Positions 14,446-48,195 of a DNA stretch of 64,000 bases are shown here, one piece after another. Below the pieces are notes generated by a model. The model was given only the letters and a program-made list of their open reading frames with translations, ran no database searches and was not told where the DNA came from. The DNA lies in assembly GCA_030248215.1 (NCBI GenBank), contig JASANG010003930.1, positions 62,001 through 126,000 of the forward strand. Direction: 5' to 3'. Every line of letters begins with the position of its first letter. The stretch's first letter is position 1. This stretch comes from Enoplolaimus lenunculus. Lineage: Eukaryota. The position numbers and the translations under genes are program-made.

Positions 14446-14777
14446 TTAATAGGGCCGATAATAGCTTCCGCTCACAATGGACCCGTTTGCGGTATCTCGA
14501 TGCGGTTGTAAATGAGCCGAACCACTGTACAGACCATACGGATCGCTTGGTGGATAGCTGATATAAGGCGTCGTATATGCGTCCATTCTTGCGTTATCAG
14601 TTGTGCTCACCACATCTTGCCAGTCGCGCAACGACGTGCGATCCCCGGGTAATGTTTTATTGGAATCATCTTTGAGTAGTTTGGAAGAACTTGCAGTTTT
14701 TGGCGAACCTGAATTTGCGCTTAGTTGGCCTGGAGTATTCGATATTGTGCAACCGTTGCTAGCGGTAATCGCTTGGC
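14446..14777 (-). CDS. Exon 35 (terminal coding exon)
   Basis: Strong TCTTTTCCAG phase-1 acceptor; GQAITASNG...SLRDWQDVV...GSYYRPY then TAA. Confidence 0.72.
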
Positions 14778-20700: not shown

Positions 20701-23700
20701 CAATTCGGTACTAATTATTTTGCATCAATTGTCACTCACCGCAAGGCCGACCCTTTGAGCCATAACTTGAAACGCTTGCGTTTTTCGGTCTCTGTAATCT
20801 TCGTTCCATTGTTCGTCGGGTAGTCGAATCCTCATGCGAAACCGTTGAGTTGCAATTTGTGGTGCGACTGTAAACAAATATAACAAAAAACAAAAGTACA
20901 ATAACACGACACATTGCTGTTATGATAAATTCATAATAGCGTTTGCAAGCTGACCACCAAATACAATTAATGCAATTAGCAATTTCCGAAAGTGTCACTG
21001 GTTGAACTATGCCCTACCATCGAAAACAGAAATAGTTCAGTGACACATGTTGGGGTATTGCATATGTTGTTTGTTTCAATTCACCAATTTTTTTCACTAA
21101 AGATTGAAATTTCGCTGTCTGAATTTAAGCTTTGACATTAAACTAAACTGAGGAGATTATAAACTGAAAAACTATATTTTTACCGTATTGACAACTAACT
21201 TTTATGGTCAAAAGCCGTACAGATACTCAGCTGTTATTATCAGTTATTAATAAGTTTTCAAACAAGCCAATTATGACAGCGGCAAAAGTCAAAATCATCG
21301 TAACAATAGCACAAATATCAAAACTCGCAAAATGTGCTTATTTTGAACTTTCCTACTTCCCGGCTTATAAGCTATAACATTTTTTCACAAACTAACGATA
21401 AAAACTATGCAACTGCCAGATTATCATGCGTACACGAGGTAACTTTTGAGAGGGCAGTGTCATGGAGAGTGAAGCCAATAAATCTTCAGTATCCAAGATA
21501 CTGAAGCCAAGAAATCTTCAGTGTCCACGACACTACCCCGTCAATAGTTAACTGTAGTATGTATAATATTGGTGAAGTTGCAATACACGCATGTCAGATT
21601 ACAGACAATGGTGTATAGAGTTATTCGTAGATTAACTTACACGTGCCAGGTTTTGCCACCTTGACATCTGGAGTTTTTGTTTCATAGTTTGCTGTCGAAA
21701 TTCCAATAGTGCGTGATGTAGTTTGTTTAGGTTCAGGTTTAGACTTATCGTACGAAGTGAATGTTGTTGTTCCGCTGGAAGTCGAAGACGAAATACTGGT
21801 GCTAGATGGAGTTTGCTCAGGATGCGGTTCCGGTTCCGCCTGGCTGCTGATTGGAAGATTCGATCGTAAAAATGTGTATCCTCCGTACTCTAACGGTTCT
21901 TTTGGTTCCGGTTTCAGAACAGGTTTAGCCTTCATTTCAACCGGCTGATAACCATGCAACTGTTCTTCTAACGTAGGAACGTATCGTTCATAGGCAACTG
22001 TAGACTCAGATTCAGGTACAGGCTCCGGAACTGCAGCAGTATTGACTGTTTCGGGTTCTACCTGGGGTACGACCGGTTCTCGTGATGGCTCACACTGAAG
22101 CAGACAAACCTTTGCCTCTGAGATTACCAAAGGTTTAGTCGAATCATGTCGTTGAATACCACCATCAATACCTGTAGTGCCACCCAGAACTGGATACACC
22201 ATGTAAACGCATTTGTTCAAGCTAAAATATTGTAAATTAAAGTTCGAGATCGTAGTGAGCGTGTAGCCACAAACGCAATTTTAGTACTCAATCTTAATGC
22301 AAAAATAGGTCATTTTAAGCCCTGATGTTGCGTCCGCAGCCTAGGTGGGGCGCGTTGAGATCCATCAGTGTTTATTTATAAACTGCAAATCAAATAAACC
22401 CGTCGTAGTGGGACTACATCTATTGAGCGAAGCTCGAACGCACGTAAGCAATTAAGGTAATATACAAATTAGTTATTAGCTAACTATTCATTTATCGGTT
22501 TTGAAGATTTTTAAGCAATTTCCTCAGATTCCTCGCACCCAAAAACCCTTCAGCCACCCTAATAATTATTGGAATAATTTTAAAAGTCCTAATTTTGTAT
22601 CGTCAATTAAGCAAATATACAAATTAGCTATTAGCAAACTATTCCATAATCGCTTTTAAAGGTTTGTAGACAATTTATTTAGATTCCTCGCTGCCGAAAA
22701 CCCATTATGGCTGAAATTATATTGCTTGTAACCCTAATAATTAGTGAAACATTGTAAAAACGCCTAATTTAGGCTTATCAATTATGCTTATATGCAAATT
22801 ATCTATTAGCTAACTACACAATTATCGGTTTTGAAGGTTTGCAAGCAATTTCCTCAGATTCCTCGCACCCAAAAACCCTTTAGCCACCCTAATAATTTTC
22901 GGAATAATTTAAAAAGTCCTAGATTTGTCTTGTCAATTAAGCTAATATGCAAATTAGCTATTAGCTAACTATTCAATTATCGGTTTTGGATGTTTGTAGA
23001 CAATTTATTCAAATTCTTCGCACCTAAAAACCCTTTGGTGCTGAAATTATATTGCTTTTAACCTTAATAATTAGTGAAATATTGTAAAAAGTCCTAATTT
23101 AGGCTTATAAACTATGCTAATATGCAAATTATGTATTAGCTAACTGGTAAGTATCGGTTTTGGCGGTTTGTAAACAGTCTACGCAAATTTCTCGCACCCA
23201 AAAACCCTTTAATGCTAAAATTAGATTGCTTCTAACTGTAATAATTAGTGAAATATTGTGGAAAGTAATAATTTAGGCTTAATTAATTATGCAAATTAGC
23301 CTGTAGCTAATAAACGGCTTAAAATTTTAAAACCCCAATGTGAGGTTAACACTCCAGGATAATTAGCTTTCAAACAAAAAAAAGTTTATCAAAATCGGTT
23401 CAGCCGTTCCTGAGATTCTTTTCGGACGGACGGACATCCACCTTTCGACCCCCAAGTACAAAACGTAAAACGCTTCGCGCGCTCAAAAACTGAAAATTGG
23501 TTATTGCTTTCTTCGTCAATTTTTCATTAATGTAAACATTATGGTAGTTGAATACTGTTTGAAATACAAAAAGGCAAAACCTTTTTTACTAAAGTTCATA
23601 AACCACAACCCATTTCTGAATGAATATTTTCTTCGATTGGTGCCCTGGTTTCCGAGTGAAAACCGTTTACCATCATTACTCTACGTATAGAAGATTGACC

Positions 23701-26700
23701 GCTTGGACTCGAGGGAACTCTCACGTCTTGACGAGATTTTCCATTACACAAACGCGTATTAATTGTTAAACGCAGTACAATGTGTATTTATTGCGTGTGC
23801 GCAGATTGCCCATAGTTGCTCAAAGTGTACTATTTGCGAGAAAAGGTAAGAAGTTAAATCTAACCTGCATTAAAAATATTGAGCAATTTTACCCTGAACT
23901 TTCGACACACCTTGTACAAATTTGAAGCCAATCATCTTTTGTAGACTCGTAGCTCTACAAAAACCGCTTAAAGTATATGCTTTCTCTTAGCTCTACGGAA
24001 ATCCCTTGAAGTATATCCTTTGACCTGGTTACTTACTCTATATCTTCAGAATCATCATTTGTTTGCAGCGGTCGGGTAAAAACAAAATGCAGTACACCAT
24101 CGTCACTATAGTGCCCCGTAATTCCATAAATGTTTTGTTGGTAATCAACTGCAGGTGCATCTTCGCCAATAGAATGTCTGAAATGTTCGCCAGCAATTAT
24201 TTAACGCGTCAGCCGTAGCTCCAAATTACTTTGCGTAAACTGTATTTTGCAAGCAATTTTGCAAAACGCATGCAGTCCCGCAGCAAACTCAACCTGCTAG
24301 AAGGGACCAAAATAATTTTAGGCGGATCATGCGGTTAAAACAATAAGGTAACAAGTGTGACTAAACCTTTTCCAGAGGGAAGATTTTACTAGGGGCTCTA
24401 CACATGGCCCGTCTATGGCTGAAGATTTTTTAATATTTGCCGGCGCCGTGCGTCGCTGTACGTGACCGTTCGTTAGCATGAATATCGCACTAGAATTACT
24501 TGCGTCTGTTATTGTACGGTGACGCACAGGGACGGACGTGGACGAACGACGCCGTACAAAATATCTAACAATCGCTTAGAGTATAAATTCGAAATAAGTT
24601 TACTAAAATGTCGCTTTCGCTAGCGTGGTGTGATTTCATACAAATATGTTTAACAGTGACTACGTCATCTTGCCAAATTTTGATAGTTGATAACTAATAA
24701 GAATTTGATTACATTATTTATTTACCTGTCGAATGCTTCGATTTCACCGGTTTCTGACATTCTAGCAATTACCCAATCAATTTGACTCTAAAACAAATTC
24801 ATTAAGATGAATCACAACAGAATGTACGTATTAAGCTTTGTAAGCAATTCGTTTCATATTCGGTCATTGATTTAAATTGATCGCCAATGTCGATGCAGGT
24901 ACGTCTCAAATTCAATTTTTTTCAATATTTCGATAGACCCGTTTATTACTAATAGCCGGAATGCCGGTCAGATTAAAGCTATTTTGAATTAAAAAGTTAC
25001 TGAAAAACTCTGAATAAGAATGATTTGCCCGACAAAACAAATATGGAATATTTAAATAGGTAGGAAACCGCAGATACCGTCACAGCTTGATAAGTTTATG
25101 GAAATAATTTTGCAGAAACGATGGTAACTTGGCGGCTAATCATCTCCGTCTCTCTCCCCGGACCCTTTGAAATGGCTGATTCTCTAGTTGACCTATGATC
25201 ACAATTAATATACGGACGACGCGCCCAGGTTAATTACAAGGACTGCCACTTGAAAGACAGTAGGACTGGGGAACTTTGATATTTAAAAGCATAGGCTAAA
25301 ACATAGACTAAGGCTTAGGATTAATGTGACGTTTAGGCTTGGTTAAGACTTAGGTTAAGGCTTAAAATTAGTAAGCAGTTCCTTATAGTTAACATGAGTC
25401 ATTATAATTATCATTATACAAACTGCACAAACATACCGTAGGGATTTGCTCGTTTACAAACCCAACGCCCGTCCAACTGTCCGCAGGCACACGAGCGTCC
25501 ACGGTAAATGTGACATCGGAATCGCGTCGAAACCACGAGACACGGTACTGCTGGTCTTCACCAAATTCGTAAACACCAGTACATTCAGTAGGAAGATCTC
25601 TGGTGGGTGGATCTGAAAACCAGCGCATATTGTCAAATTGTACACTTGTATGCCGTTTAAGATAACTCGGTATGTTTTACAATTGGTAAACCTAAGATTT
25701 AAACGACACCAAATTCAATATCGTGGGATCATTTGAGGATCCTGAGATTTCTGATGGAGGGTGCGCTTATAGAATTTCTGGAACTGAAGACGCCGCTAAG
25801 CTTTTGAGATATACAGAGAAATTTGTGGAAATGGGATGCCGAAGGTGCCAATCAGCGTTTGAAAAATAAAAAAAAATTTCGCAAAACAATGAAAATCGCT
25901 TCAAAACGTGATACAATTGAATTCTTGTTTGGAAAGAATTAGCTGGTGTAGGGCGTCTACTGACTCTTACGCGGACGGTGACTTTATGAATTATGTGCGA
26001 GGAATATGAATTGAAATGAAAGCTAATAAGATTAATTTTAATTTTTTCACTAAAACCTTTACGGGTGGAAAATTTTGCGAAATCCATGCAAGCAAAGTCA
26101 GAGAGAAGCTGAACAGTAATTAAATAACTTATAGCTGATTACTGTATTGACCCGAAAAAAAGGGGGATGCGTAATAAGAGGGGGTTGGGTAATAAGAGGG
26201 GGTCCCCATTTTGAGTCCGAATCAATTGGGGTCCGTATCCCTAATAAGAGTCCGTACGCGGATAGTCCCTAAACCCTAATTAGAGTTCAGAAATGTCAAA
26301 TGATCCTAATTGTAGCGCATAAAATTTTAAATCATTTAATCTGGTGGGCACTTTCTCTACGCGTACACAGGCGCAGAATAAGTAGGGCAATAAATGTATC
26401 AATATGGAATAATTAAAACTCAGATCGTTCTTAGAAGTAAAAAATTCGTTCGCGGTTTAGCCAGTCTAATCACAAACTGGTAGTCATTTTTGAGGGGTGC
26501 TCCATGTCATCCCAACTAAACTCAGGGGGACATGGAGCACCCCTCAAAAATGACTACAATACAGTGATCTTTAGCTACCTTTATAGTTATTAACAAATTC
26601 TAAGCACGCAAGTGAACCAACTACTCACCGTAAAAGTTCACATTGAACATGCCACGGTTTAATTTTCCATGATATTTGAGGACATCTAATTCGTAGAAAT

Positions 26701-29700
26701 CGCTGTTGTATTGCGTATTAGTTTGCTCTAATCCTGAAAATATAGAGTAACACAGAAGGATAAGAAAGCTCGCAGGCACTAAAGAATATTTTACAATGAG
26801 CTTATATCTTACCAAAAGAAATGTTGGTTACGTATTATAACTGTATGTTAAGGGTAGCGCTATACTTTTGATGACGTCCGGTGCCGACCATCATCGTTCG
26901 TCATTCGCACGGTACCGGCCGTCACCCTCACGTGCCGTCCGTCACCCGTTACGGCGCCGTCCGTCACCCGTTACGGCGCCGTCCGTCCACCCGTCACCGT
27001 CACGTACAATACTGTACCGTGATGCACGGCGCCGTACGGGTGACGGATGGTCCGTACGACAAGTATAGCGCAACCCTTACGCATCTTAAATGTGTAAGTT
27101 CATTCAGAATTATTTATTTTCGGTTATTAAACACAAGAGTATACAGAATTGCTTTGAAAATAATAATTTAGTGTTTATATTGTTTCCATATACGAAAATA
27201 GAAAAATATTGATTCAGCCTTATTGAATATGAGATTAAGCAAGTTCACTTCGATATGTCCATCCTTACCAGATGGCGGGTCATGATAATACAGCCCAGGT
27301 TGTTGACCTTTCGCCCAAATGACGTCCATGTTCTTGTCGACAATAACGTGATCAGCCTTGGAGTCATTCGCTGAAAAAATTTAATACGGTTCTTTGTAAG
27401 CAGGTAGCAAGTTCCTGATTGGTTAGCTTACATTCGTCAAAATCTTATAGATTCAAAAAACCAGAGATTTAAAAAAATTTGCTTTAAAAATTAAATATTC
27501 CATTTGAGTTCAAACTCACTTCGAAGTGGCCTTCTGAACAATATTGTGGTAATGCCATCTTGTTCGTAGCCCAGTGCTGTTGTAATACTATCGCTTCCGC
27601 CGTAGAAACTGTCTTCACGAGGCGTTGCGCGGCTAATCTGAAATTTAAATAAAAATTAAGTATTTGCACATAAACAGCAAAAAAGTCTTATTTATTATGT
27701 TTCGTATTTTAGTCAATTTATCTTATCTGTATTTAGCAAAGATCGCGCTATGCGCAGCCATTTATAGGTTTTCAAACAAATGAACTACAATACTTGGCAA
27801 TAGAAAATTTGGCACAGTTGTAGCTTGTGTTTGTCGTAGAAAGTATATTAAATGTATTGGCTGTCAAAAGTAATCGCTAAGTTTGGATATACGCTGTGTT
27901 ATTCACAGTAGGAAATAGTTTCGCTAACTGAAGGTACTCGAATACGGAAGCTTGAAATTTTAACAGATTGAACAAAATCAATGATCGGCAAAAAGGTTTG
28001 GTTACTTTCGGAAAGTTTTAACAATAAAAACATCGTATTCATTCGTTCCAAATCATAATTTTATTTCGTCGTAATTTTGTGCTTTATATAAACACACGCG
28101 GGGTCTGTAAAGAAGAATAGCTTAAAGCGCAACTTATCACCTCTCGTTTCCTAGGCCGAATTGCAACATGCTTTATAGGTTGCTAACAGTCACATTTACG
28201 TTCTGCCCATGATTATTATAGGAGCGTTCCCACTGGGGAACAGGGCGTCGCGGAGACTTGAACATTGGAAAGCTTAATCTTAAGCTTAGGATTAGGAATA
28301 GGATTATGTTTAGGCTGTGGCTTAGGATAAGAATTAGTGTTCGATTTTGGCTTGGTTTAGGCGAAGCAGGCAGGCCTCTATAGATACGACGAGCTTTATA
28401 TTCATTCAATTTACCGTATAGTAATCTGCAACACGGCTTACGTAGCCAACTGCACTTCCGACAACAATATCCATGCAATCCATCGGGTGCAAGTCTAATA
28501 ATAACAGAACCGAATTACCCGGTGTGTCTAGTGGCGCCGTTCTGTAATCCGACGTCGAGCAGGCATACAAAAACGAATAAAATATTAGCTTTTAAAAGAT
28601 AAAATAAACGACTAAACTATTCGCTCTTAAGATTAAATTTTTAAACAGTTTGTGATGGTTCGATAGGTTAATTCCCATACCTCACCGACCCAACCGCGTG
28701 CCCCATGTTAAAAATTGTTTTGTCGCTCAGCATGCGGATTTGGCTACGCTCTGCTATTCAAAACTATCAAAACAACTTTTGGGCGAAAAAACGTTTCGAA
28801 TATTCTGAAGCAACTCTTAACAGATCAGATACAAAATAGCACCAAACGTTGTCAAAAAGTCAGACCAAGTATCCAGAAGAAAAGGGGTTTCAGCCCCCAG
28901 AATAATTTTGGCCTGCTGGAAAAGTTTAGCTTCAACAGTAAGCTTTTTTAAACCGCAAGCCACTCCTAAAATTGTTTTGTACCCCAAGCAGGTAAACTGC
29001 CTTCAAGCCTGCAGAGCAAATCTCTTACGTGGTTGTGTTCTGCGAATAGACGATGTCTTTGGCTCCGCTTCGGGTTCAGAATATTGAACTTGTTTAAAGC
29101 CTGGTTCAGGCTCGGCATATGTAGCATCTGAAATTTTAATTTTTATAACACTTTAGGAAACGGAAAAATTCGACTTAGCCAGTGTAATAAAATTACGGTC
29201 AATATGAGACCCTGTGATCGGTAGACGTCCTGTAAACATCTGTTATTTTGAAAAAGAGCAATCAAACGATAATTTGTTTAGTCTGAAATTTCGACCATCT
29301 TACTTTTAGAAGCATCCTTCATTCTCGTGGAGCTGCATAAAGCAGGCTAACGAATACAGCTATTTTTGCATAGGCTCAGGCTTAGTGTTACACATACCCG
29401 TTATGCTGATGCTTTGCTTTAGGAATCACACTGTTGTGTTCCTAAACGTGCCATTGGCCAAAAATTATATTAATGTATTTATACGAAACTCGTCTTAGCA
29501 CTTGTAAAAACAGCCTACAATAGTTTAAATCTAGAACGGATTATCGGTTCACGATAGAGGCCTCAGCGAAACGTAACTTTTTAAAAATAGCGTTTCCTGT
29601 TACCTTTAGGATAATATTCAACTTGACGTTTTGCACGCAACAGCGGCTCTCCATCGTCTAAAGTAAATTAACAACGGTTACCAACTTCAATCATGTGTTA

Positions 29701-32700
29701 ACACGAATATTCAGTTGAACACAACAACCAAAACGTTCCAAACAAATGCTACCGCAAACTGCAAGTGTCATTGTCGTTAAGCGACCCAGCGGCGTTCATT
29801 TGCTTGTTTTACAAATGGACACCAGAAACTAAACGCCAGTTACAATTCAATGAACACATTAAATGGATCAGATACGGACGCATGGAATTTATTGAAGAAC
29901 CGTCTGCTATTGCAGAATGGAGGAATTGATCCCATAACGATGGGGTTGCATGCACGAGAGAAACCTCGACAGCGAATTTTTCTGGCATCAAATGGAAGGG
30001 ACAAACCCTTTGCCTAAACCGGCTGCTGCACCACTCCGTTATGTTGTGTTCATAATTCACTTGTGCTGACTGGCTTGTAGCCAGCTAACATTTCTAGAAG
30101 AGGCTAAACAAATTTTAGGCCTAGAATACATGGGTATTCGATGAACTTACAAGCGAAAAAGTTTTTGTCGTTCGAGGTTCGAGTCAAAATTTTTATCGGG
30201 GCTGAGTCCTCCCTGTGTCACCTTTGGCTTCGGTAAAGTGTACCAAGCCGATCCGAAGCGAAATAAAAATTTACCAGTGCAAATGCAAATTTTTTCTTCA
30301 GATGCGATTGGAATATAATAGTCGTGGTATCCAATCGCCGTTCGACTATCGCGATATTCGTCCGCAGTGCGTGCAATCACTCGGCCGCCTCCAATTGGAT
30401 ACAAAAAGTAAACACACTCAATCATTGCAAGATCTTCTCGACGGTCTGGCGTTATCAGACGTCTGAAAGAAAATGCAGAGTTCAAAATTGTACGACTCAC
30501 AACCTTGTGCCCTGCGGAAATGTTCAAAGCCAATGTTCAACTACGGTTCTCGGCTTTCAAAAATTGTAGCAACCGGAAATTCGATAGACTTAAGGAAATC
30601 AATTACATATTTCAAATACCAATTAACGATTATGGATTTTAAAAACGATGGGAGTAAAATTTTAAATTCTGCACCATCCAAGAGAAATGTTAATAAAACT
30701 TCGCTTTTTCCATTTAAAATCGAACATCAGCAGCATATCTGTACTGAAAAACTGACTGATTTGTAAGCGATTCACAAGTGGCTGCAAATAATAACGTTGG
30801 AATTTGGTTGCATTTGCATAACAAAACTTTTCATACTTATACATAACGGAAACGGCAACTGATTCAAAATTTTAATAGAGATAAATATTCGGCTACACTT
30901 CGGCGAGTAGAAAGAGAAAATTTATTCACTTACCTTTTAAACGATATCGTTTGATGATTTCCCTCAACGCTTCCAGATACAACTTTGATATCTTGGGTTT
31001 TGTCTACAGCAGGTTGATGTTTTCCGTACGTGTACCTAAATGGTGAATAAAAATCTTAAGAATTTTGTAATATATTATCTATAATTATTGTTAAAAGATT
31101 TAATTTTATATTTTAAAACTAGTTGATAAATCTAATATAGCTTAGGTGTAGGCCTTGTTAGCAGCTATACAACCGGGCCCATAGCCAGCTAACCTTGCTA
31201 GGGGGGACAAAAATTTTCATGAGGGGCATAGAAGTGTTGTCGACGATGCACAAGCAAGGTTGAAAATTTTCTAGGAGGAATTCTTGTAGAAGGCGACCGA
31301 GCCCCCTTGCACCCCACTGGCTATCGGTCCACATACAACTAGTACTATATTCTTCTGCGCCCCATACTTGAAGTGCATTGAAAAAGTGATGTAGTGATAA
31401 CAACCATAAGCTCCGCCCAGCCTTTGCAATATTCATATACTGTATCGACGGCCATTAGAAATTGTTTATCTTGTAAAATAGAACATGGATATTTAATTTA
31501 CCCATGAAACTGTATCACTTACCGATCGGTAATGTAAGGTCGATCGTCGTAAACCCATCCAACAATGACGTCGCTGTTGGTCTAAAATATAAAATTAAGG
31601 TTAGAACCACAAACTAAACACAGGGACGAATTTAGGGGCTCACGCGATCGATATCCGAACATACACAGAGAAAAACTAGCAACTTTTAAGGTTATTACAA
31701 ATTTTAACGTTTCGATAAAAACCTTTTCGTTGCCATATTAAGTTTTGCTCACCAGATAGAAATAATTGCACGCCTAACGTATTTTAGAATTAACATTTAA
31801 GCACAAAATTTAACTTGTGTACTCAAAATTGATAATGCTTAACGAAACTTACACTTTGGAACTTACCATATTCTTATCTTCAGACAATGCAATTCCAGTC
31901 CAACGCCCAAGACCAGACGCGCTTATTGTGAACAGAACTTCTTCCGATTCGGGCAACAGTTGCCATGACGCGTGATAATCGCAATCGTTCGCTTCTACAG
32001 AACAGCCAGGCGGATGCTTGAATTCTGTGGTACAGCGTTCGGATTTTCGTTTTAACTCTGAAATAAAAACTCATTTATTAAACACGAATAAATAATGTGC
32101 ACTAAATTGAATTCCGGCTTGTCGGTAGCTTTAAAAATGTTACACCATTATGGAATAACGTGTAAACTTTGCAACAAATAGTTATTGTTATCCTTTATCC
32201 TCTCGCGTGTCCTTTTTCAGTTTGCAAAATGTTAGTCGCCTCCTGAAAGCTATCTGTAAGAAATTTGGTTCCCAATATATGATACTACAAAAAGGTATAC
32301 CTACAACTGGTTGATGAAAAAATTTCAATTTTGCAACGGTCTGGTTGCCAGCAGTTTATTAACGCGATATGCGACTAATGAAATGTGAATATGTGGAATC
32401 TACGACAATTCGTCGCCGAACAACTTGTGGCTCGACAGTGTCCTAAGCTTAACCTAAAGCATAACCCTAAGCCGACCCTGTGTCTAATTATGCGCGGCAA
32501 AATGTCGACTGGACGAGACTTCTGATTACAATTTGTCGGGCGATGAACTATCATAATGCCAAATTTGTAAATTTGATAGATTAAGGTAGGTTCACATAGC
32601 AGGCAACGTGATTCAAAACCATTAGTAGAAGTTATATATATAAATTTCAATAAACCAAAACCGATATTGCTAACCGAACTATAAATTATACTTCTTTAAA

Positions 32701-35700
32701 ACAAGTGAAACAGATTGGCAACTATGATTAAAATAATTTGTTTCTACATACCTAATTCCGTTGGTGTCTTTTGTCCGCAGGACCGAATGCAAACTCGTTC
32801 ACTCGATACCATCGGCGCGTCTAAATGCTTCTGAATACGACCGTTTGTAAAGCGACCGCCAGTAACAGGAAACAAGAAATGTGTGCATGCGTTGTCAAAC
32901 TGAAACCATACATCATCTTGTGTATATGTCGTAGCACAAGCCGTAATTCAGCCCAATTCCGAATTGGGTTAGACCAAGCCGTAATACCGTTTTGGACTAG
33001 ACCAATTCGGAATTGGGCTGAATTACCACTTGGGCTAAGACATATACTTGCAATACACAATGTACAGTGTTAAACAATTATTACGCGTATACGCAGAAAC
33101 AATCTGCGGGACGTGAGGGCGCGCTCTCGGTTTAATAATTAAACAAAAACTAGTATCGTGATTACACCAAGCGCATAACTTTTTGTATCAGTAAGGCAAT
33201 ATTTTCAACGCGGTTTAGAAGCGAAATTTTTAGCTTGTTTACTAAATATCGTTATGTCTCTTAATAAATCTGTTGCTATTGAATTAGCTCAAATTTTAAT
33301 GCAAAAAACACTTCACTCGTTGGTAGCCATTGGTACGCAACGTATCGCACTACAAATTTCAACTTCTGCAATCGAAAAATAAAATATCCATATCCGTCCA
33401 GTTTTTAAATTGTTTTAAGTTATACAGAACTATGTAGAACCCTTAAAGAAACTTTTGCTGCTGGTACAATGCGGTTTCCATCGCTGCTGGTACAATGCGG
33501 TTTCCATCCACGACGTATGGAACCGCTGAACTACGTACCCATGCAAGCCTTTCTCTACAACGGCTCAATATACCGTACGTTGATGGCCGCAGTCAACTTC
33601 GTCTTACTTGAGTATCACGTCTGTCACCAGTATCACGACTTCGTCGAAATCGGGCGCGTATTACCCCTTTGGTATGAGAACTGTCCAACAGTGTTACGTT
33701 TTGTCGAGGATCCTTAAATGGTTTGTAGTATCCGGTGGAGTACCTAAAAATTTACATATGTTCAGATAATTATCAAATAAACGCTTCTAAGTGGTGAACA
33801 AATATTTACCTTTTTACTAATACAGTATACTATGAGCGACTATTTACATATAATACGCGAGCAATACAGATACTGTGAGCAGTTTTTAACAATTCTAACA
33901 TATATGTGCAGCGCAAAACTTCGGTCATCGTAAACGCCTCAAACCTGTGAGACTGAGGATCGAATCACACATTGAAACTAAATCTGATATGAAATTAGAA
34001 GGGGAAAAATAATGGAAAAATTCACTCTTAGTATTTTTTAAATTCAGCCGCAGACAGAAATTTTGTAAATGATGCAACACACTTTTCGATTCAGAGATTA
34101 CTTTTCCCAGGTTCAGGTTTAAACAATTTTCTAAATAGCAAATCCTCATATCCAGGTATAGGACAGCTGGGAACAGCTGACCAGAAAAACATTTTTGATT
34201 TTATAAAAAATTTTAGAGCCATTCACGATGCATGATAAATTCAAATTCGCATAGCCCCTGGAAATTTTTGCACCCCCTTTTTATGTTATAGGCTGGCTAT
34301 GAGTTATCAACAGAGCAATTATATATCGTCGAGTTTTTTTATAGCTTTTTATTCATATCTGTATTTACCATTTAGTAACTATATTTTCGCCCATGTTCGT
34401 AAGCCAAACCTTTACCTAAGCCTTCCAAGCTATGAGTCCACCGGTTTGCATGTTTCTTATTAGACAGGCCCTTATAACTAACATCATGGACCATTATTTT
34501 TATTGCATTTGACAACGTTTAAACCTAGATTATAACCACGAAAGAGGATGTCCTATATATCATTAATTTGTATTAATTAACGAATGACAATAATTCAAAT
34601 TTTGGTAGTTTAAACCAAATGCTGCCTTTGAAACCCTAAAAAGATTTTCAACATTCAGTATATTTCAATTTACGCAGAACCATATAGGTCTCTACACGAA
34701 AATTCTGCGGCGTATGCGATAGGGTTCGAGCCCACGTCACGCAATCCATTCTTCTGTTATAACCGCTGAGATACGCAGCCATATTGTAATGGTAGTAAAA
34801 ATAACGAAACTTACATATCGTTCAATTTAAGGCCATCATCCTTATCGCTAGTAATCATTATTATATCGGCATCGTGCTAAAACAGTGCAATATACATGCT
34901 GAAAGCGAATAAGATTCTTTAGAATATGGTTCACAACTAATACCAGGGATTTTGTTATGTTTATTAAATTACAACAACAAAAGTTTTCCGTGAAAAAATA
35001 ATGCACCTGCTTGTTTCCTTCCGTAAGCTTTTGGACAGGTCTATTCGTATGCCAAAACCTAATCCAATTCCTACCAAAACATGAAATTCTCGAAAACTGG
35101 ATAACAAAACGTAACACAACAGAAAATAAAATGTTAGCTTTAAAACTGTAGATTTATTCAATATTCGTTTACATTATCGCACTTAGCCGTCGTTTGCCTA
35201 AAAAAGTTCGATTTTAAAAATTTTGCCTTTTTCAGCTTCTCATGGCCTTCCCTGATCATTTCACTCTAAATATTAATAAATATTAATTTTTAAAATATTT
35301 CATTTTTTAAGATCGCAAGGTTTCCCCTTAGCAGTTGGAATAAAAAAATTGTCAAAGGGTTAATAAACCATTTGGTGCAGCTTGCTGAGCTGATGCGCAG
35401 ATAATCAGTTGATTAACGAGTTATTGTCATATAACTGACTTGGTGCGGTGCCAACGTTTTGGGATGGCGCGAAATAGTTATTTCACCACGGCTTATTATT
35501 CGATCGTATGATTGCGTAAAATTTAACACCATTCAACTGAGGTCCGCAAGCTGCATCAAGTGATACATACGTCGTGTAGTTTTTGACAGAAAGTTTTGGC
35601 CTGAAGGTAGGGAGAGACCTTCAGGATCTTTAACAAATTGTCCAAGTTAAAAATTTGGGCGTGTAATGATCAGGGGAGGTCATCAGAATCTCAAATGCAA

Positions 35701-38700
35701 ATATGAAAAAAATTTCTAACCCAACCATTATGGGCAAACGCCTACAAAACGGGATAAGGGAAAAGAGCCGTTCAAACTAAATTTCAACAAATTTTCTTTC
35801 TTTCTGTCCAATGAAATACACTAAATGACGTCGTCCAACAAACATACCATTGTACCACTGTCCGAAAACCCAACTCCAGTCCACCATCCACTAGGACTGC
35901 GCGCTTCGAGTGTGAATTCAATTTCGTCCGATGGTTGTTCGCTTTCGCTCGCTTCTCGATCGCCCAAATACGACCAGCTTAATCGATACTCGCACGGCTT
36001 TTCAAGATGTGCAGCGTCAACACAATCAGGCGGATATCGCCATTCACCAAAACAGTTTCCGGTTCCTGTTATTTCCGGACGTAACGCAGCGGTTGTTGTT
36101 TCGATTGTCACTTTTGTTACTGGGGTCACCTTTGTGTCGGTTTGATGTTCTGTGTTTTTCGGCGAATTAGCTGTGTTGGTAGAGCTTTCAACTGGTGTAG
36201 ATAGTTTTGTGGTAGTGCTGGATGAGTGAACTGTAGATGCTACTGATATGTTGGAACTTGAACTATTTTTCGAACTTGCTTTGTTCATTGATTCTGTGCC
36301 GGGAACTGAAGTTTCGGCGTTAAATCGTGTTGTACCTTGCGATTGATGGTGACCTTTACCAAGTTTTGTTGTAGGCCTGTTAGTATTAGCCAAAGACGTT
36401 AACACTGATTGAGATTCGAGCGGAATTGCCTGAAATTAACAAGATAAGTATTATTATTAATAATAACGTTGTTATTCAATTTGAGAACAATATATTGCTA
36501 AAAGTTTTGTGTAATAACAAATTAAATTGGTAATTCTAAACCGCATATAGTATTCATCAATTAATAATTTATCAATTAAAAAGCAAACGCTATCAAGCAA
36601 CTAAGTTTTTATTATTGAACATTGGAGCCTTTCTTTCGAAGAATTATTCTCTTAAAACCAACGAATACCACCTCAAACCGTTTTTTAATCAATTTACTAT
36701 CGATTGTGAGAAATAAATGTAAGCATGAACAAATTTAAATTTCGCCGTTAAAAACTTACCGAATTATAGATTTTGGCTGTTTCAAACTTTGATAAAACGG
36801 CAGCTTCTTGCGCATCAATCTCATGGGTTGTAGTAGCGACTTGGACGTTCGTAGGCGTAAACTGTTCACTGATTTCACCACTGATCAAATCAACTGTCGT
36901 TGATAACTAAAATGTAAAGTAACCGAATTTCATTCCGTTCAAAACCAATGAACGACTGATTTAGTATAAAAAATAACACAATCGCCGTGAGTTAAAAAAG
37001 CTGGGCTGACATAAAAAAATGAACTTTGGCATTTTGATATAAGGCGACCCACCTCTGCACAGTAATAAAACTATAAAACACAAACTCGACTTATTGTCAA
37101 AACCCTGGCTGCGAAAGCTAAGTAGTCAAGTTTTGTATCACCAGGGTGTATGCAAGAAACAATAAGGGTGAAATATTAATACCGTCCCCCGAAATTTTAA
37201 AGATGCGAAAGGAATAGACACCTTTACTGGTTTTAAAGTAACTTGCTAGATTCTAAAATAAAAAAGTTTTCTCGTGATAAAAACTTAAATAGACCTATTA
37301 TATTCCTCTTTGAAATGAAGTTCTGACTGCGCCCCTGGCATCATGTAAGATTTCTCACTTACACCTTCCTGTTGTAGCTCATTAACCGGAGCAAGATCCG
37401 GAGGTGAATACGTTTCTGGCCCTGCAACTTGTAAGTTTTGTTGATCCTGGTCATAAGACAGCACCGACGATTGATCTTTTCCTTGAACGCCGTCAAACTG
37501 TGAAATGTAGTAGTCAGGTTGCTGGGCTGGCTCACCAACAAGTAGTATTGGCGATTTTGCAGTGTCAATGGTTGCAGTATTTGGCGTACCAGGCTCATTG
37601 GATATGGGTTCTGGCAGTGCGAGGTCACCTGAACAATGTTTAGTAGAAAAAGTAAAAGTTAATTAAAAAATCAAAAATTCTGAAGTGTCTCGCTTTAATA
37701 ATGGAGTAGAATTTATAAGATGATAATATTTAGTAACATCGCTTTAATTGTAATGAAAAAAATATTTATAGATAATATGTGAAGTTCACTGTTTCCTGTG
37801 TCTTGTAACTGGTTTACCTAATATGCTCAGGTTTGTAGCCTGCTAAACATGCTGTGGGGGTGAAAACTCCGGGAGATCTATGCAATTGAACTTGAAATGG
37901 TCAAAACGTTTTAGCAGGACTGGGGGGAACACGCGCTGCTCTTTTTGGCTACAACCCCGTAATGCCTGTGGCAATTATTCAGATGGCTTGAAATAAATCA
38001 TAAAGTTGACAATTGCCCTCAATCACACACAAAATATATTTTTAAGTTTAGAAGAGTCTGCAAAGAAACATCTAGTGAAGCTATTTTTCGCTAAAATTAT
38101 ATTTATTAATGACTGTTGTCAATCAGTTCAACCAAGAGTGCATGATACAAGAGTATGCAACTCTTTGGATTCCGCATGATACAAAATATACCACCGGGCA
38201 TTGCGTTTTTGGTGGACCCCCCTTGTTTAGAGGGGGGTTGCTGTCACATGCAATATACCCTAAATTAAATTATAAGCGGAGCAATTTGTTACCTAATACA
38301 TAATGTGTCATGGTTCGCATAGATTGTACCCCCTCTAAATAAAGAAGGGTAAAGCAAAAATGCAACGCGTGCCGGATACATTCTTTCTACACAGAATGCA
38401 TCCAGTTGCATACTGTTGTTGGGTATGCATCATCCACTATTGGTTCAACACACTGCTAGATGGTGCCTGTTATGAATGACAACAAAAAAGGTGCAAATCT
38501 TTGCTTTTGCTGTTGTCACCAAAGAATTGTGATATTAAACTAAATGCAGCGTTCATGTTTTTAGTACTGAAGTTTAACACTTTCTCGCACAGAGTATACT
38601 ATGAACAACTAATTGCAAACTGTATACGATTAAATTCGTTATAATACCTTCCAACTCTGTTCTTTTTGTGACAATTGTTTTCGGTTGGCTGTCAATACGA

Positions 38701-41700
38701 AGCGAAATTTGCGGACCTCGTACATCATGACTTTGAAGCAGGGCAGAATACTGATCTGCTCCAAGCTGATCTAGCCAGATTTCCGGTTCAGACCGGCGTT
38801 CCGGTTCAGGTTTAGGCTCTCCTTCAGCGATTGGATAACTTGGAGAACTCAAGCGAGGTAGTGCTGCACAAGTAGTTGAAACGTCTTAAAACAGTTTATG
38901 AATAACTTGAATTTTGATGGCTTTTGTCAATATATTAAGCACAACTCTGTATATTTGCAGCAAATTAAAGTTTGTCATTTTTCGCAAGAAATTTTATTCA
39001 ATATAAACCAAGTGAGAGGTTAGGGTATATATGTAGAGCCTGTTGTATTACTCCAGTCGTTATGTTTTGGGGATCTTTTTTGTGAACTGTAAGTTCCAAT
39101 GAGTGTACTAATTAACGTATAGAGAACTAGTTATTTCTGTTTATTTCTGAGTTATTTATAACAGTAAATAATAACTCACTCTGAGCTGATCTACTTCCGA
39201 GAGATTTGATCAATTAACTTAGAATGATTTCAATAAATTTACAATTCTGAGTTCTGAGAGACCTAATTCAGCGCTCAAACTTTTGAGTGGATTCAACTCT
39301 TTCTGAGTTGAAATCAACGTATTTCTCATTTACAGTGCGGGAGGGAAGTATAAACAAGTAAACATAACTCACCTGAAGGTCTCCATCCGACGGCAATCCA
39401 AGATGTGCTCGGAAATTGAAGGACAAATTCGATTTCGTTTTCTTGCTGAAATATTGTGTTAACTAATTGAAGAGTTACCTCAGATATTACACAAAGCAAG
39501 TCAGTCTATAATACATATTTAGAATTAATCACATTTTTCACGGTTCAAAGTTAAAATCTTTTTCAAACTTTTAGCTGAGAAGGCAGTAAGCCTTTAGCAA
39601 ACTCAGCATGCTAGGCAGACGCAGACAAAACTATTTTATGTTTCTTAAAACGCTATAATGCGAGCACTCTGCACATTCAACGCGACAGCATAATTTTCTA
39701 CTAAAATTGTAAAATGTTTACCGTAGACGGATGTACGGACTGTGGGATGTACGATACATAGATAGTTTGCTTAAAAATTATTAAACTCGTAAAATTATAT
39801 TTCTCAAAATTAAAGTTTCATTCAATTTGTCAATTTTACTTTCAAAAACATAATAGTATTTGCCGTAAAAAATTCAATTTCTCCCAAATTTTTCGTATCG
39901 GCGCAAAAAATCAGAAGCAAACAAGGCTTTTGTTTTCAAATAAAAACACAGATGCATAGAGTAAAGAATGCTTGTCTGCAATTTACCGGCAAGATACGCC
40001 ACATTATTTTGTTTTGTTCCGGTCCAACAATTCGCTTCGTATATAAACTTTCGTCAATATCATCTTTATGGGATACCTTTGAGCCTAAAAACGAAAACAC
40101 ACCTGTTAGAAATAGATATTGCCTAAGTGTAAAAGTACATGGTTTTTCGGTTATCCGCAGAGCCATCGTTTACCGAACAATGGTAATATTTTGAAAATTT
40201 TTGCAGATTGTATCTTCTTGACGACTGCCTCCGATCATTTCCTGAGCCCGTAGCCAGAGGAGTTCAACACTTGCAGAAAAATTTCGGCCAAACTACAAAA
40301 GTTGTATAGTCCTGCTTGTGAGTCTTGCAAAATCAACGAAGTTTTGGCCCCACTGACATGTTATGCTGGCTACGGCCCTGTCGCTTACACAACTAAGTTT
40401 TAGTTCTTGCAATTTTAATATTTCGAGGTCACAAATTATTTGTACCATCCCAGATCGTTGGCAGTGCACCAAATCAGTTATTTAAACGTTACCTTGCAAA
40501 CATTTGGCCACATTGCAAAAGCAATCATTCAAGCGGTTTTAATTTCTAGTAGTTTTAGTGGATTTAGCTCTTTCTAACAGTAGTTATTAGTCAAACTAGC
40601 TCGTGTTTGCCGATAGGTGGTCTGGGCTCTTGTATACAATTCCAGCACATTATAAGATTAAGGCTTATGATACAAGTTTAACTTACGTTTATCGCACAGT
40701 TTTCCAAAATACCCCATTTTGCAGTAACATACTCGTCGAGGATATACTTCACTGTATCGAATTTGGCATAATCCATATTGACCACAGTCCGAGTCTTGCC
40801 AACATTCATCTGAAATTTTGTAAACAAGTTAAGCCTAATTTAGCTTTTGATTGATCATAACTTATATTTCTACGACTCGCAGGGTGTATTTATTTCAGGC
40901 CGACACGAGAAGTGAAACAAGACTGAATGCTTGGACCGAATGATTACATACTAAAATTGCGAATGAAAGATGACGCTTATAACAAAGGTAAGTCAAAAAT
41001 ACAATTCTTAATTACGGGGGATCATTGCGCTAAAAGCAGGGGATACCCTGAGAACTAAAAATGTGCGTTGTAATTTTTTAGCACAAGTTTAACAAACATA
41101 CTTCTATTCTAAATAGTTAAATTAGAGCACCAAACAAAGGCAATTAGGCTGGATATTAATAGAAACAAAATTCTGAAGTACTTATCTTGGGAGCAAAATA
41201 CTTTAAAAAGACTTTCAGGCCGTCTCAAAAATCCAGACCGTCTCAAAAATCCAGACCGTCTCAAAAATCCAGACCGTCTCAAAAATCCAGGCCGTCTCAA
41301 AAATCCAGACCGTCTCAAAAATCCAAGCCGTCTCAAAAATCCAGATCGTCTCAAAAATCCAGACCGTCTCAAAAATCCAGACCGTCTCAAAAATCCAGAC
41401 CGTCTCAAAAATTCTGACCGTCTCAAAAATCCAGACCGTCTCAAAAATCCAGACCGTCTCAAAAATCCAGACCGTCTCAAAAATCCAGACCGTCTCAAAA
41501 ATCCAGACCGTCTCAAAAATCCAGACCGTCTCAAAAATCCAAGCCGTCTCAAAAATCCAGACCGTCTCAAAAATCCAAGCCGTCTCAAAAATCCAGACCG
41601 TCTCAAAAATCCAAGCCCTCTCAAAAATCCAGACCGTCTCAAAAATCCAAGCCGTCTCAAAAATGCAGACTGTCTCAAAAATCCAGACCGTCTCAAAAAT

Positions 41701-44700
41701 CCAAGCCGTCTCAAAAATCCAGACTGTCTCAAAAATCCAGACCGTCTCAAAAATCCAGACCGTCTCAAAAATCCAAGCCGTCTCAAAAATACATTGGTTG
41801 CTTAAATTTTTTGTGCCGTAGTATACATCAACGTCCTTATGTGAAAAAAGTTGATAGTTATATTGTGCTTACCTTCATTTTGGCAGTAGGACCCTGAGTA
41901 AAATGTATCACATAGACATCCGGAGCCAGTCCACGTCCCGTGGCCAGAGCATAACGTTTCAGCAACAGGAACTAAAGTAAACGATCGACAAGCATAGCGT
42001 CACGAGTGCATAAATATGTACGCAAAATTTCAATACTTATATTTCGTATACCCAGGCCTGCAGCCAGCACACTTTGCTAGTTGGACTAAACATTTTTCAG
42101 AAGGGGCATTCAATGGGTTTGGATGACGTACAAGCAAGGCTGAAAATTTTTTGGGAAGGTGCGAAATTCTTCCAACAGGGCTGAGCCTCCCTTGGCCCCC
42201 ATATGACTACGTGCATGCATATACCGCACCTATCAGTGATTAGAGATCGTTGGCGAACCCAGGGTTTTGGTTTGGGAAGGGTAATACACAGGGCCGGTGT
42301 TAGGATAGTTGGGTCCCCCTGAAGGGAGGCTTCAATTAAATGTTTCACAACTCTTTCATTTCGTGGCCCACGAAAAGCTTTTAGTTTGCCAAGCTGTACT
42401 TCAGATATTGCCGGGTTCGAGGGGGGCGCTTCTTCCGCCACTGGTAACACCAAGTACTTTAGTGTATATGGTTTGTTTTAAGCCTATAGGTCTCAGCTAG
42501 TATTTTATTTACAAAATACACTAGTCAAATTCATAAGAGGGGTCATTGACTCATTTGTTCCCTCTGACTGCGTACTTGTATGAAACGCTATTTTTCGTCT
42601 AGAATCTTCGAAACATCTAAGCGATGCTTACCTTGAACTATTGACACGTCAGCGCAACTGAGGAAATTATACGTTGGGCCCCATTCAAGACCTTGCCGGG
42701 TCAAACGTATCGCACATTTTGGACACTCAAATCCTTCGGGCAAATTGACTAGGTAATGTGTCAGTCTGAAACAGTATTTTCACCCATTAGATAAAATTTC
42801 ATCATACCAGCCATGTATAGGCAGCGGCAATGATAACAGTTGCAAACAAGCACTCGAGTTGATGCTGGTTTTTTGAGCTCCAAGTTTGGTAAAAGGTAGA
42901 AGTTTACTTTCCCAAACTACTACTGCTTCATCATTCATTTTACTAAACCTATCTATCAGGTTGCAACCGAAGCTGAAAAACTGGAGACGATGCCGCAGGT
43001 AAATAACTTTAGCCGGAGCCGGAATTGGAGTTGGAAATAAAGCAAAAATAGGTTATAAAAATAAGGTTCAATTTACAACTTTTAACAATAATTTGCAAAG
43101 AATGGTCAGAAAACAGTTCATAAGCTTCCTTTTTAAGAACAAAGTTAAAATCAGCTCGATGTGAAAAGCACAACTGGGATAAACAAATGAAAAATTTCAT
43201 TACCGAAGTTACCGGAACTTCTGAAAAAACTCTGCACGAAGCCGGGACCGGAGGTCAATTTTTTGCCGGAGTCGGAGTCATACCTCTGGTTGTACCCTGA
43301 TAGTTGCATGTCACAACAAATAGGGTTTTATAGATGAGTTCCGCATTTGTGAAATTTAGTATGCAGGGCCAAAGTCAAGCCTCGCAATAGTCCTCCTGGT
43401 GACTGTCACCTTTCTGGTTCACCGAGGGACCACGGTGTTGGCTGATGTCCTGGTTATAAATGAAATAATTCGATGCGTAAGTTGAAGGAAAATTTCCTAC
43501 AGCTACGTATACGATGCTTTTAAGAGTATCGGAAAGCATATAAATCACTTTAATTTGAACTAAATTTTACGAGTGAATGAAAACAGCAGTAGAATGAATA
43601 TGAGTATGTGTAAAATCCCTTACGTGGGAGCCTTACAGGAATTAATGAGTGTTACCGTGGGCTTCGTCATATATGTAGTTTTATGAAAGGCTTACGCATA
43701 GAACGCTTAGACTTACGTTGGATGCGTTTTACCCGCATAGTCATCTTCTTCAAGTGTTAGCTCCATAAATGCGTTATCGAATTCGTCAAGTAGTTCTAAT
43801 CGAAAACCACCCTAAATCTTTACTAATACAATGTATAAAAGACATAAATTACTTGGCAAATTTTCGTTATGTTTCGGCTAAAAATTATAAATGCCTTCGC
43901 CAAATTTTCAGTTACTTTGCATATTATTTGCTTTTGAAATTTAAATAAATCACTCCGTAAAGAAGCATATACAGAGTCGAATCTAGAGGGCACCTTGGTG
44001 CAGTAGCTTTCACCAGAAATTGTTTCAGGAAAAATGGTAAGGGCATACTTCACTAAAATTAAATTACTATACTACTCTTCTAACCGCAACAACTGTGATT
44101 AGCTTTGCAACTCACAGAATGACTATTAGATTTTAGCGTAAAAATGCGTTAAATTAATATCAGAGACGCAAAAACGAGTTTTTCTAGGGTTCTCAGACGG
44201 CAGGACACCGGTTAACACAAAAACAAAACGTGCCATCAAATCCTCGATATCCCCCATTTGACGGGCTTCACCTCTAAAGGGGCCCCCGTGTTTAACCGGT
44301 TCAAACAAAAACCGCCGAAGTTTTAAAATACGTAACAGTCAAAGGACGAATTATTTAAGCAGAAATATTTAAACACAACTTTATATATAAGCGATACTAC
44401 AAATATAGAGATTTTATCGGCCACGCCACCACTTTTCGATGGACAAAGTTGTAGACATACCTGATGCGGATATGATAAAGTCCACGATACATTAAATTTT
44501 GAACCAGCTTGGATTGTAGTTCGAACTCCTGAAAAAAGATCGAAATAATCAGTTTAAAAGTTTAAAATACTACGCACGTCAAACATGGATATATACTGCA
44601 ATGGAACCGGACGCGGATATGTAGCCACAGCGACGTGCCTAAATGGAAGAACCTTCAGTGAGATTTATTAGTTAAATCGAGATTAAGAGACAAATTTTAT

Positions 44701-48109: not shown

Positions 48110-48195
48110 GCTTGGCTTAGGCTTAGGTTTAAGCTTAGACTTACGAATATGCTCATTCTTACGCGTAGGCGTAGGCTTAGGCTTAGGCTTAGGAA
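48110..48195 (+). repeat. Interstitial telomere-like (TTAGGC)n tract
   Basis: GGCTTAGGCTTAGG...GGCGTAGGCTTAGGCTTAGGCTTAGG; many degenerate tracts occur elsewhere in the window. Confidence 0.75.

What the first reader, a model, noticed from the sequence alone, without database searches (positions are those of the whole stretch)
26629..40084. Nested domain architecture: DOMON-1 is split by a ~740-aa insertion containing two complete DOMONs
Seen: DOMON-1 starts in exons 7-8 and breaks off at SWIAVGWRP (about aa 303). Its continuation HPMDCMDIVVG...FRRPL...VIWAKG...YHG appears only at exon 21 (about aa 1043). Between them lie PEPE/ST-rich linkers and the intact DOMON-2 and DOMON-3. Neither half of DOMON-1 has another partner in the gene. 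Inference: whole domains were inserted into the loop just before the heme-ligand Met, so DOMON-1 must fold from segments about 740 residues apart. Profile searches would likely report it as two fragments.
Basis: partly seen in the sequence, partly recalled or inferred. Interest (0 to 1): 0.75.

Follow-up and report, generated by a model that had tools for sequence, protein, structure and literature searches.

The report
Heme domains nested inside a DOMON
In this worm cell-surface protein one heme-type (DOMON) domain is cut in two by a 744-residue insert holding two more whole DOMON domains; the halves are predicted to refold around it, the layout is shared by many nematodes, and the domains likely feed electrons to a predicted copper-enzyme head.

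Summary
Confirmed, but not peculiar to this genome. A 35-exon, 1,878-codon minus-strand model is open with AG/GT junctions throughout. DOMON-1 breaks after SWIAVGWRP (aa 302) and resumes at LHPMDC (Met1047), 744 residues on, with two whole DOMONs between. The joined halves score 195.6 bits as one domain on a profile from 10 natural short-loop orthologues; wrong pairings score 54-65. Among 56 proteins with both halves the loop runs from 23 to 949 aa; 32 hold two nested DOMONs: the window, 30 nematode-type proteins and the annelid Owenia. An AlphaFold model of the C. remanei orthologue joins the halves in one sandwich; as separate chains they score 0.64 against 0.00. Cys309 and Cys1049 likely staple the loop (51 of 53 keep both). 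So the DOMONs are likely heme-b relays to a copper site; this is untested. No RNA evidence was obtained for this species. Domain insertion itself is common; I found no paper on this case in 10 searches.

The parts
45797..46016 (-). Exon 1: likely signal peptide, then mature His39 (codon at 45902), first histidine of an LPMO-like brace
   Evidence: the signal peptide is inferred from hydrophobicity and from His at this place in 48 of 56 aligned N-termini with a letter there
42632..44528 (-). Exons 2-4 (44528-44461, 43811-43717, 42765-42632): rest of the AA15-like LPMO domain, His95 and Phe162
40687..41971 (-). Exons 5-6 (41971-41873, 40809-40687): two EGF-like repeats
39373..40084 (-). Exons 7-8 (40084-39987, 39445-39373): N-terminal half of DOMON-1, ending SWIAVGWRPS
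36760..38884 (-). Exons 9-11 (38884-38648, 37628-37363, 36906-36760): start of the insert; Cys309 (38870) then Pro/Glu/Ser/Thr-rich linker
32752..36429 (-). Exons 12-15: Ser/Thr-rich linker and nested DOMON-2 (aa about 646-824; Met714, His805)
30275..32057 (-). Exons 16-19: nested DOMON-3 (aa about 838-1008; Met893, His993)
29029..29127 (-). Exon 20: short PEPE linker closing the insert
26629..28494 (-). Exons 21-24 (28494-28415, 27637-27520, 27370-27269, 26733-26629): C-terminal half of DOMON-1; Met1047, Cys1049, His1164
21641..25612 (-). Exons 25-28: DOMON-4 (Thr1236 in place of the heme Met, His1329), then PEPE/ST stalk
18796..20867 (-). Exons 29-31 (20867-20740, 19823-19762, 18950-18796): SEA-like domain
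   Evidence: blastp to the SEA region of nematode orthologues, best E 2e-14; Pfam SEA on orthologues
14446..18000 (-). Exons 32-35: transmembrane segment and Tyr/Pro/Ser-rich cytoplasmic tail; boundaries of exons 33-35 are less sure

Best explanation
This gene encodes a single-pass animal surface protein whose first DOMON domain is interrupted by a 744-residue insert carrying two whole DOMON domains; the two halves are predicted to fold back into one beta-sandwich, likely stapled by a Cys309-Cys1049 disulfide, and the DOMONs likely act as heme-b electron relays for an N-terminal LPMO-like copper site. Shown: the order signal, LPMO-like, EGF, EGF, D1N, linker, D2, D3, D1C, D4, stalk, SEA, TM; the same order in nematode orthologues; a contiguous DOMON-1 in short-loop orthologues. 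Predicted: D1N supplies strands to the D1C sandwich. Inferred: D2 and D3 arose by duplication of the DOMON-4-type exon set into a loop that already tolerated long inserts, early in nematode evolution. D2, D3, D1C and D4 follow each other with short linkers (about 13, 38 and 15 aa), so up to three Met/His heme sites in this copy would sit in a compact chain that D1N ties to the copper head, as the cytochrome domain of cellobiose dehydrogenase serves fungal LPMOs. My odds: architecture 0.95, refolding of halves 0.9, disulfide 0.75, heme-to-copper relay 0.45.
For: Open 35-exon model. Joined halves: one continuous 195.6-bit hit over profile 9-175 of 177; D1N with D2C, D3C or D4C 59.2, 65.3, 53.8; D2N, D3N or D4N with D1C add nothing to D1C alone (143). 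32 of 56 proteins with both halves hold two nested DOMONs. Two Logan-derived orthologues of 1,585 and 1,658 aa lie on contigs of at most 5.5 and 6.0 kb, barely longer than their coding sequence, which fits one spliced transcript (P0185; P0244; layouts). AlphaFold of C. remanei P0200: D1N and D1C core blocks at pLDDT 82-94; 2 of 50 listed structural matches align one antibody domain across model residues 118-897 and 115-897 (106 and 114 residues, rmsd 3.7 and 3.9, Z 6.0). Halves as two chains: 0.64 against best control 0.00, runs agree in at least 81% of contacts, partner pLDDT at least 69; the mark was reached by 51 of 78 solved and 2 of 108 mismatched microbial pairs (eukaryotes 71 of 105 and 2 of 126); Cys154 and Cys773 of P0200 are both in the interface list. 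Both cysteines in 51 of 53 proteins; they are the only two cysteines of DOMON-1 in the window. D2, D3 and D4 share two intron positions and phases. Tree: window D2 with 12 other nematode first inner copies (100/97), D3 with 10 second inner copies (100/98). Met and His kept in 14 of 18 D2, 14 of 16 D3 (2 gaps) and 15 of 16 D4 nematode copies. N-terminal domain: family profile hits Thermobia AA15 at E 4.5e-5, with its brace His and axial Tyr aligned to His and Phe; model of P0036 residues 24-151 matches 5msz at Z 13.2, rmsd 2.4, 128 residues.
Against: No transcript evidence for this species. All folds are of orthologues, not of the window's protein. The nested model has pTM 0.38, so domain-to-domain placement is not determined. 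The two-chain pass may reflect likeness to solved DOMON folds, was run without the alignment, and chain 1 pLDDT was only 55-56; the Cys pair is not among the 25 listed closest pairs. The antibody matches at Z 6.0 are generic sandwich matches and show only that the halves are adjacent. 12 of 53 proteins lack the D1 Met, the D1 His or a Cys, and several plant-parasitic, free-living clade IV and filarial orthologues have lost a brace His while keeping the nest, so the layout persists without the redox residues. The window's DOMON-4 has Thr for Met. No reductant source is encoded in the protein. Heme, copper and activity are untested.
Confidence: 0.75

Rival explanations
1. The nested block is a facultative cassette: alternative splicing gives both a long nested form and a short form with a near-contiguous DOMON-1.
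For: Exons 9-20 total 2,217 nt; that block and exons 10-19, 10-20 and 16-19 are all multiples of three, with phase 1 at both ends. Priapulus isoforms differ by one trailing DOMON (P0194 and P0203).
Against: Every listed nematode orthologue of the long type with both halves has both inner DOMONs. The shorter C. briggsae records P0236 and P0237 are N-truncated, not cassette-skipped. Phase 1-1 is also what exon duplication leaves.
Confidence: 0.2
2. The architecture is real but the protein is a structural or metal-handling matrix component (like fungal X325/Bim1 or DOMON proteins that bind sugar), not an LPMO with an electron relay.
For: Pfam BIM1-like scored E 1e-5 to 3e-4 on 4 of 14 orthologues; LaX325 matches at Z 11.6. 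Redox ligands are lost in several nematode lineages while the nest stays. Mucin-like stalk and SEA domain.
Against: The best sequence and fold match is AA15. Brace histidines (48 of 56 and 46 of 59 rows with a letter) and Met/His pairs are kept across arthropods, an annelid, a sea cucumber and most nematodes.
Confidence: 0.4
3. The inner exons belong to a separate nested gene, or the model is an assembly or annotation artefact.
For: The model rests on genomic DNA alone; no RNA run was listed.
Against: Continuous frame and canonical junctions over 35 exons; the same order in 30 nematode-type proteins and Owenia; single short contigs encode whole nested orthologues.
Confidence: 0.03
4. The halves of DOMON-1 are orphan remnants that do not refold.
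For: Some clade IV and filarial D1C regions score only 15-47 or 77-94 bits and lack ligands.
Against: The window's D1C scores 133 bits and keeps Met, His and both Cys; models join the halves.
Confidence: 0.05

Closest known systems
Uncharacterised LPMO-like/EGF/DOMON/SEA proteins of invertebrates, e.g. C. briggsae CBG04265 (XP_002630336.1), Owenia CAH1775664.1, Neodiprion XP_046596731.1
   Same: Same domain order and same split DOMON-1; nematode members have the same two nested DOMONs.
   Different: Chromadorean members add TIL repeats to the insert (three in most), the window and Romanomermis have none; arthropods have a linker only; the window's DOMON-4 lacks Met.
Cellobiose dehydrogenase cytochrome domain and fungal LPMO redox pair
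   Same: DOMON fold (Z 13.6-13.8 for inner copies; Z 10.3 for DOMON-1); Met/His heme-b ligation pattern (PMC10691727, passages); an LPMO-fold partner.
   Different: Here the LPMO-like domain and four DOMONs are on one membrane-anchored chain and there is no flavin dehydrogenase; 12-19% identity; nothing tested. That CDH reduces LPMOs is recalled textbook knowledge.
AA15 LPMO of Thermobia domestica (5msz)
   Same: Fold, N-terminal His, second brace His (His1, His91, Tyr184 from PMC5823890, passages).
   Different: About 128 against 195 residues, Phe at the axial Tyr position, 22% identity; the AA15 fusions named in that paper are CBM1, CBM14, GH18 and GH19, not DOMON.
Domain-insertion (A1-B-A2) architectures in general
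   Same: A host domain interrupted by whole domains; 20.23% of multidomain proteins have insertions (PMC13114784, passages).
   Different: There inserts are smaller than hosts in 77% of events (median 115 against 199 aa). Here 744 aa with two copies of the host's own family sit in a host of about 170 aa. DOMON is not named in that paper's text or its 3 held supplements.
Early-branching 'DOMON/EGF and LPMO_10' cluster of Voshol et al. 2019 (PMC6950343)
   Same: [quoted passage not shown]
   Different: No mention in the passages seen of a split or nested DOMON, ligands or taxa; its Table S1 was not seen, so identity with this family is not checked.

Membership tests
DOMON (PF03351), heme-binding type | Profile match above the curated cut-off (32.7 bits) | tested here: inconclusive
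   Single window exons give 18-25 bits; the joined protein could not be sent to Pfam. 13 of 14 orthologues pass (34-305 bits).
DOMON (PF03351), heme-binding type | Beta-sandwich like DBH DOMON and the CDH cytochrome domain | tested here: met
   On orthologue models: contiguous DOMON-1 Z 11.7 to 4zel; inner copies Z 13-14.
DOMON (PF03351), heme-binding type | Axial Met and His in DOMON-1, -2 and -3 | tested here: met
   Met1047/His1164, Met714/His805, Met893/His993.
DOMON (PF03351), heme-binding type | Axial Met in DOMON-4 | tested here: not met
   Thr1236 (ACG at the end of exon 25, where exons 12 and 16 end in ATG); 15 of 15 other nematode copies keep Met.
DOMON (PF03351), heme-binding type | Binds heme b | not testable with these tools
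   Needs spectroscopy.
Discontinuous domain with inserted domains | Halves match one contiguous domain in homologues, and inserts are complete domains | tested here: met
Discontinuous domain with inserted domains | Halves form one structural unit | tested here: met
   By prediction on the C. remanei orthologue only.
Discontinuous domain with inserted domains | One transcript and one polypeptide in this species | tested here: inconclusive
   No RNA holder listed; orthologue contigs support it indirectly.
LPMO (AA15/AA10/AA11 fold) | Mature N-terminal His plus second brace His on an LPMO fold | tested here: met
   His39 and His95; fold Z 13.2 to 5msz on orthologue P0036. Signal cleavage before His39 is inferred.
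LPMO (AA15/AA10/AA11 fold) | Axial Tyr or Phe | tested here: met
   Phe162 aligns with the AA15 Tyr by profile alignment; Phe in 46 of 60 rows.
LPMO family AA15 proper | Family-level sequence match | tested here: inconclusive
   Profile E 4.5e-5, 22% identity; Pfam LPMO_10 reported for 3 of 14 orthologues, above its cut-off in 1. No CAZy profile on hand.
LPMO (AA15/AA10/AA11 fold) | Copper binding and oxidative glycan cleavage | not testable with these tools
   Needs assay.

The most novel reading that the evidence does not exclude
An undescribed animal family of self-wired, membrane-anchored LPMO-like copper enzymes that carry their own heme-b cytochrome chain, in which one cytochrome domain works as a stapled lasso whose loop has been loaded with extra heme domains twice independently, in nematodes and in annelids.
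Probability: 0.25. Interest if true: 0.85.

Novelty: new variant of a known kind. Interest (0 to 1): 0.55.

Why it matters
It gives a natural series for one loop, from 23 to 949 residues, with and without whole domains, in a beta-sandwich that apparently still folds: a ready test case for folding of discontinuous domains and for the claim that inserts are smaller than their hosts. It explains why automatic annotation miscounts DOMONs in this family. The same gene links an LPMO-like copper site to cytochrome-type DOMONs on one chain in nematodes, arthropods, an annelid, a priapulid and a sea cucumber, which makes the electron supply of animal LPMO-like proteins directly testable in Caenorhabditis.

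Tried and rejected
No genome was held for the window. The one search for RNA runs listed no RNA holder, so no reads could be laid; this is no evidence either way. Two word-index searches with single exons found nothing; the HMMER search with exon 4 gave 166 hits, 150 listed; its top row P0001 (11 short stretches) was not examined or used. The ESM Atlas search gave unnamed clusters and one with DOMON on 13% of members. phmmer of P0036 against the PDB found only E 0.5-1 matches. Pfam on the joined halves could not be run; profiles from orthologues were used instead. Independent origin in Owenia: its two inner copies group with each other (98/87) and with its own trailing copy (94/73, not starred); pairing Owenia's first inner copy with the nematode first copies is rejected (p-AU 0.008), but one clade of all 26 inner copies is not rejected (p-AU 0.265), so convergence is suggested, not shown; both groups were named after the tree was seen. 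The tree used 48 of 65 copies; seven taxa were left out for run time (C. brenneri, C. bovis, Angiostrongylus, Syphacia, Mesorhabditis, Anopheles, Dermacentor). Weak TIL-profile hits in the window (best E 0.028, outside the insert) were taken as chance. Earlier findings: none by place, sequence or words. Ten literature searches showed no paper on a split or nested DOMON; most listed papers were seen as listings only, and subscription journals are not covered. PMC6003135 passages were not relevant.
Full report
Gene model. The window is intron-rich animal DNA. On the minus strand I built a model by hand from splice sites: exons 1-25 give one open frame, and with ten further exons the model has 35 exons, 1,878 codons, AG/GT at every junction and one stop. 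The order is signal-like segment, His-initial domain, two EGF repeats, DOMON-1 N-half, linker, DOMON-2, DOMON-3, DOMON-1 C-half, DOMON-4, PEPE/ST stalk, SEA-like domain, transmembrane segment, tail. The best matches to the N-terminal part are Plectus and Romanomermis proteins (50-51% identity) and both inner DOMONs fall in nematode clades, so the source is most likely a nematode; that is inference.

The observation. Profiles made from orthologues place D1N at 271-302, whole DOMONs at 646-824 and 838-1008, D1C at 1044-1175 and DOMON-4 at 1194-1350. A scan of 3,509 six-frame pieces found no second D1N or D1C in the window.

Do the halves belong together? Ten natural orthologues have a loop of 23-43 aa at this place. 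On a profile of their contiguous DOMON-1, the window's halves score 34.7 and 143.3 bits alone and 195.6 joined, in one hit over profile positions 9-175 of 177. D1N with the C-half of DOMON-2, -3 or -4 scores 59.2, 65.3 and 53.8, and the N-halves of those domains add nothing to D1C. AlphaFold on the nested C. remanei orthologue P0200 gives pLDDT 82-94 over the core blocks of both halves, but pTM 0.38 overall. Of 50 listed structural matches, 2 align a single antibody domain across model residues 118-897 and 115-897, which means that both halves lie in one sandwich in the model; at Z 6.0 they say nothing about function. Folded as two chains the halves score 0.64 against a best control of 0.00; runs agree in at least 81% of contacts, partner pLDDT at least 69, other chain 55-56. 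The mark was reached by 51 of 78 solved and 2 of 108 mismatched microbial pairs, and halves of one domain tend to pass by likeness to solved folds. A Cys follows the break (Cys309) and another follows the Met (Cys1049); 51 of 53 proteins examined keep both, they are the only cysteines of DOMON-1 in the window, and both equivalents are listed in the modelled interface. I infer a disulfide that closes the loop; the bond itself was not shown.

Distribution. An exon-4 search and a profile search gave the family. Among 56 proteins with both halves (isoforms and near-copies included), 24 have no nested DOMON and loops of 23-499 aa: unnamed marine sequences, Priapulus, a tick, insects, Artemia, a sea cucumber and two short nematode paralogues. 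32 have two nested DOMONs and loops of 581-949 aa: Owenia, the window and 30 nematode-type proteins, which also carry TIL repeats in the loop (three in 29, two in the partial P0200). The window has no TIL, like the partial Romanomermis protein. In a tree of 48 of 65 DOMON copies the window's DOMON-2 sits with 12 other nematode first inner copies (100/97) and DOMON-3 with 10 second inner copies (100/98). DOMON-2, -3 and -4 of the window share two intron positions and phases, which fits duplication of one exon set. Owenia's inner copies group with each other; position-wise orthology of the first copy with nematodes is rejected (p-AU 0.008), yet a single clade of all inner copies is not (p-AU 0.265). 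Two origins are plausible, not shown.

Same transcript? No RNA run was listed. Exons 9-20, 10-19 and 16-19 could each be skipped in frame. Two Caenorhabditis-type orthologues of 1,585 and 1,658 aa come from Logan contigs of at most 5.5 and 6.0 kb, which fits spliced transcripts with the whole nest. A separate nested gene is unlikely; an optional short isoform is open.

What the protein may do. The family profile's best PDB sequence hit is the AA15 LPMO of Thermobia (E 4.5e-5), with the second brace His aligned to His and the axial Tyr to Phe (residue roles from PMC5823890, passages). The model of short-loop orthologue P0036 matches AA15 at Z 13.2, AA11 at 11.7, LaX325 at 11.6 and AA10 at 11.6 over residues from 24, and its DOMON-1 matches DBH and the CDH cytochrome domain. 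The window has His39, His95 and Phe162. DOMON-1, -2 and -3 keep the Met and His that ligate heme b in the CDH cytochrome domain (PMC10691727, passages); DOMON-4 has Thr for Met. By analogy with the fungal CDH-LPMO pair (recalled), the likeliest mechanism is a tethered heme relay that reduces a surface copper site acting on extracellular matrix. I put this at 0.45: nothing was assayed, no reductant source is evident, and several nematode lineages keep the nest after losing brace or heme ligands. I recall C. elegans C09F9.2 as the orthologue; this was not tested. One paper lists that gene in a cluster of matrix and cuticle genes (PMC9932997, passages).

Known and new. Domain insertion is common (20.23% of multidomain proteins; inserts smaller than hosts in 77% of events; PMC13114784, passages), and DOMON is not named in that paper or its three held supplements. 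A 2019 paper notes an early LPMO branch with DOMON/EGF sequences (PMC6950343, passages; its Table S1 not seen). Ten searches found no description of the split or nested DOMON, though the sequences have long been public. Verdict: real, old, family-wide in nematodes, an unusual variant of a known kind.

Noticed in passing
window 46016-42632 (-), exons 1-4: AA15-like LPMO domain with His39, His95 and Phe162 on the same chain as four DOMONs; possibly more important than the nesting.
   Followed up: yes
window 25439-25437 (-): DOMON-4 heme Met codon is ACG (Thr); 15 of 15 other nematode copies keep Met, and this copy has a long branch (1.77). Could be real decay, a variant or a base error.
   Followed up: partly
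P0147 (Bursaphelenchus), P0224 (Thelazia): Some nematodes have a second, short paralogue: LPMO-like, EGF, near-contiguous DOMON-1 (loops 37 and 76 aa), no further DOMONs.
   Followed up: partly
P0186-P0188, P0198, P0207, P0208, P0210, P0211, P0218, P0219, P0223, P0225: Filarial and clade IV orthologues lose brace histidines or DOMON-1 ligands while keeping the nested layout.
   Followed up: partly
P0136 (Owenia fusiformis) residues 286-864: An annelid also has two DOMONs inside DOMON-1, perhaps by independent insertion.
   Followed up: yes
P0172 (Mesorhabditis spiculigera, 2718 aa): Holds a second D3-D1C-D4 block without a second D1N; duplication or gene-model fusion.
   Followed up: no
window 41216-41790: 18-bp unit x 31.9 copies, 92% matches, in intron 5.
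   Followed up: no
window 15132-15746: 21-bp unit x 29.2 copies, 96% matches, in the last intron.
   Followed up: no
window 22449-23296: Repeat of about 155-175 bp units in intron 27.
   Followed up: no
window 32945-33040: Short palindromic element in intron 14, seen by eye in the sequence; several GCTTAG/TTAGG-like degenerate runs also occur in introns, e.g. 48110-48193.
   Followed up: no
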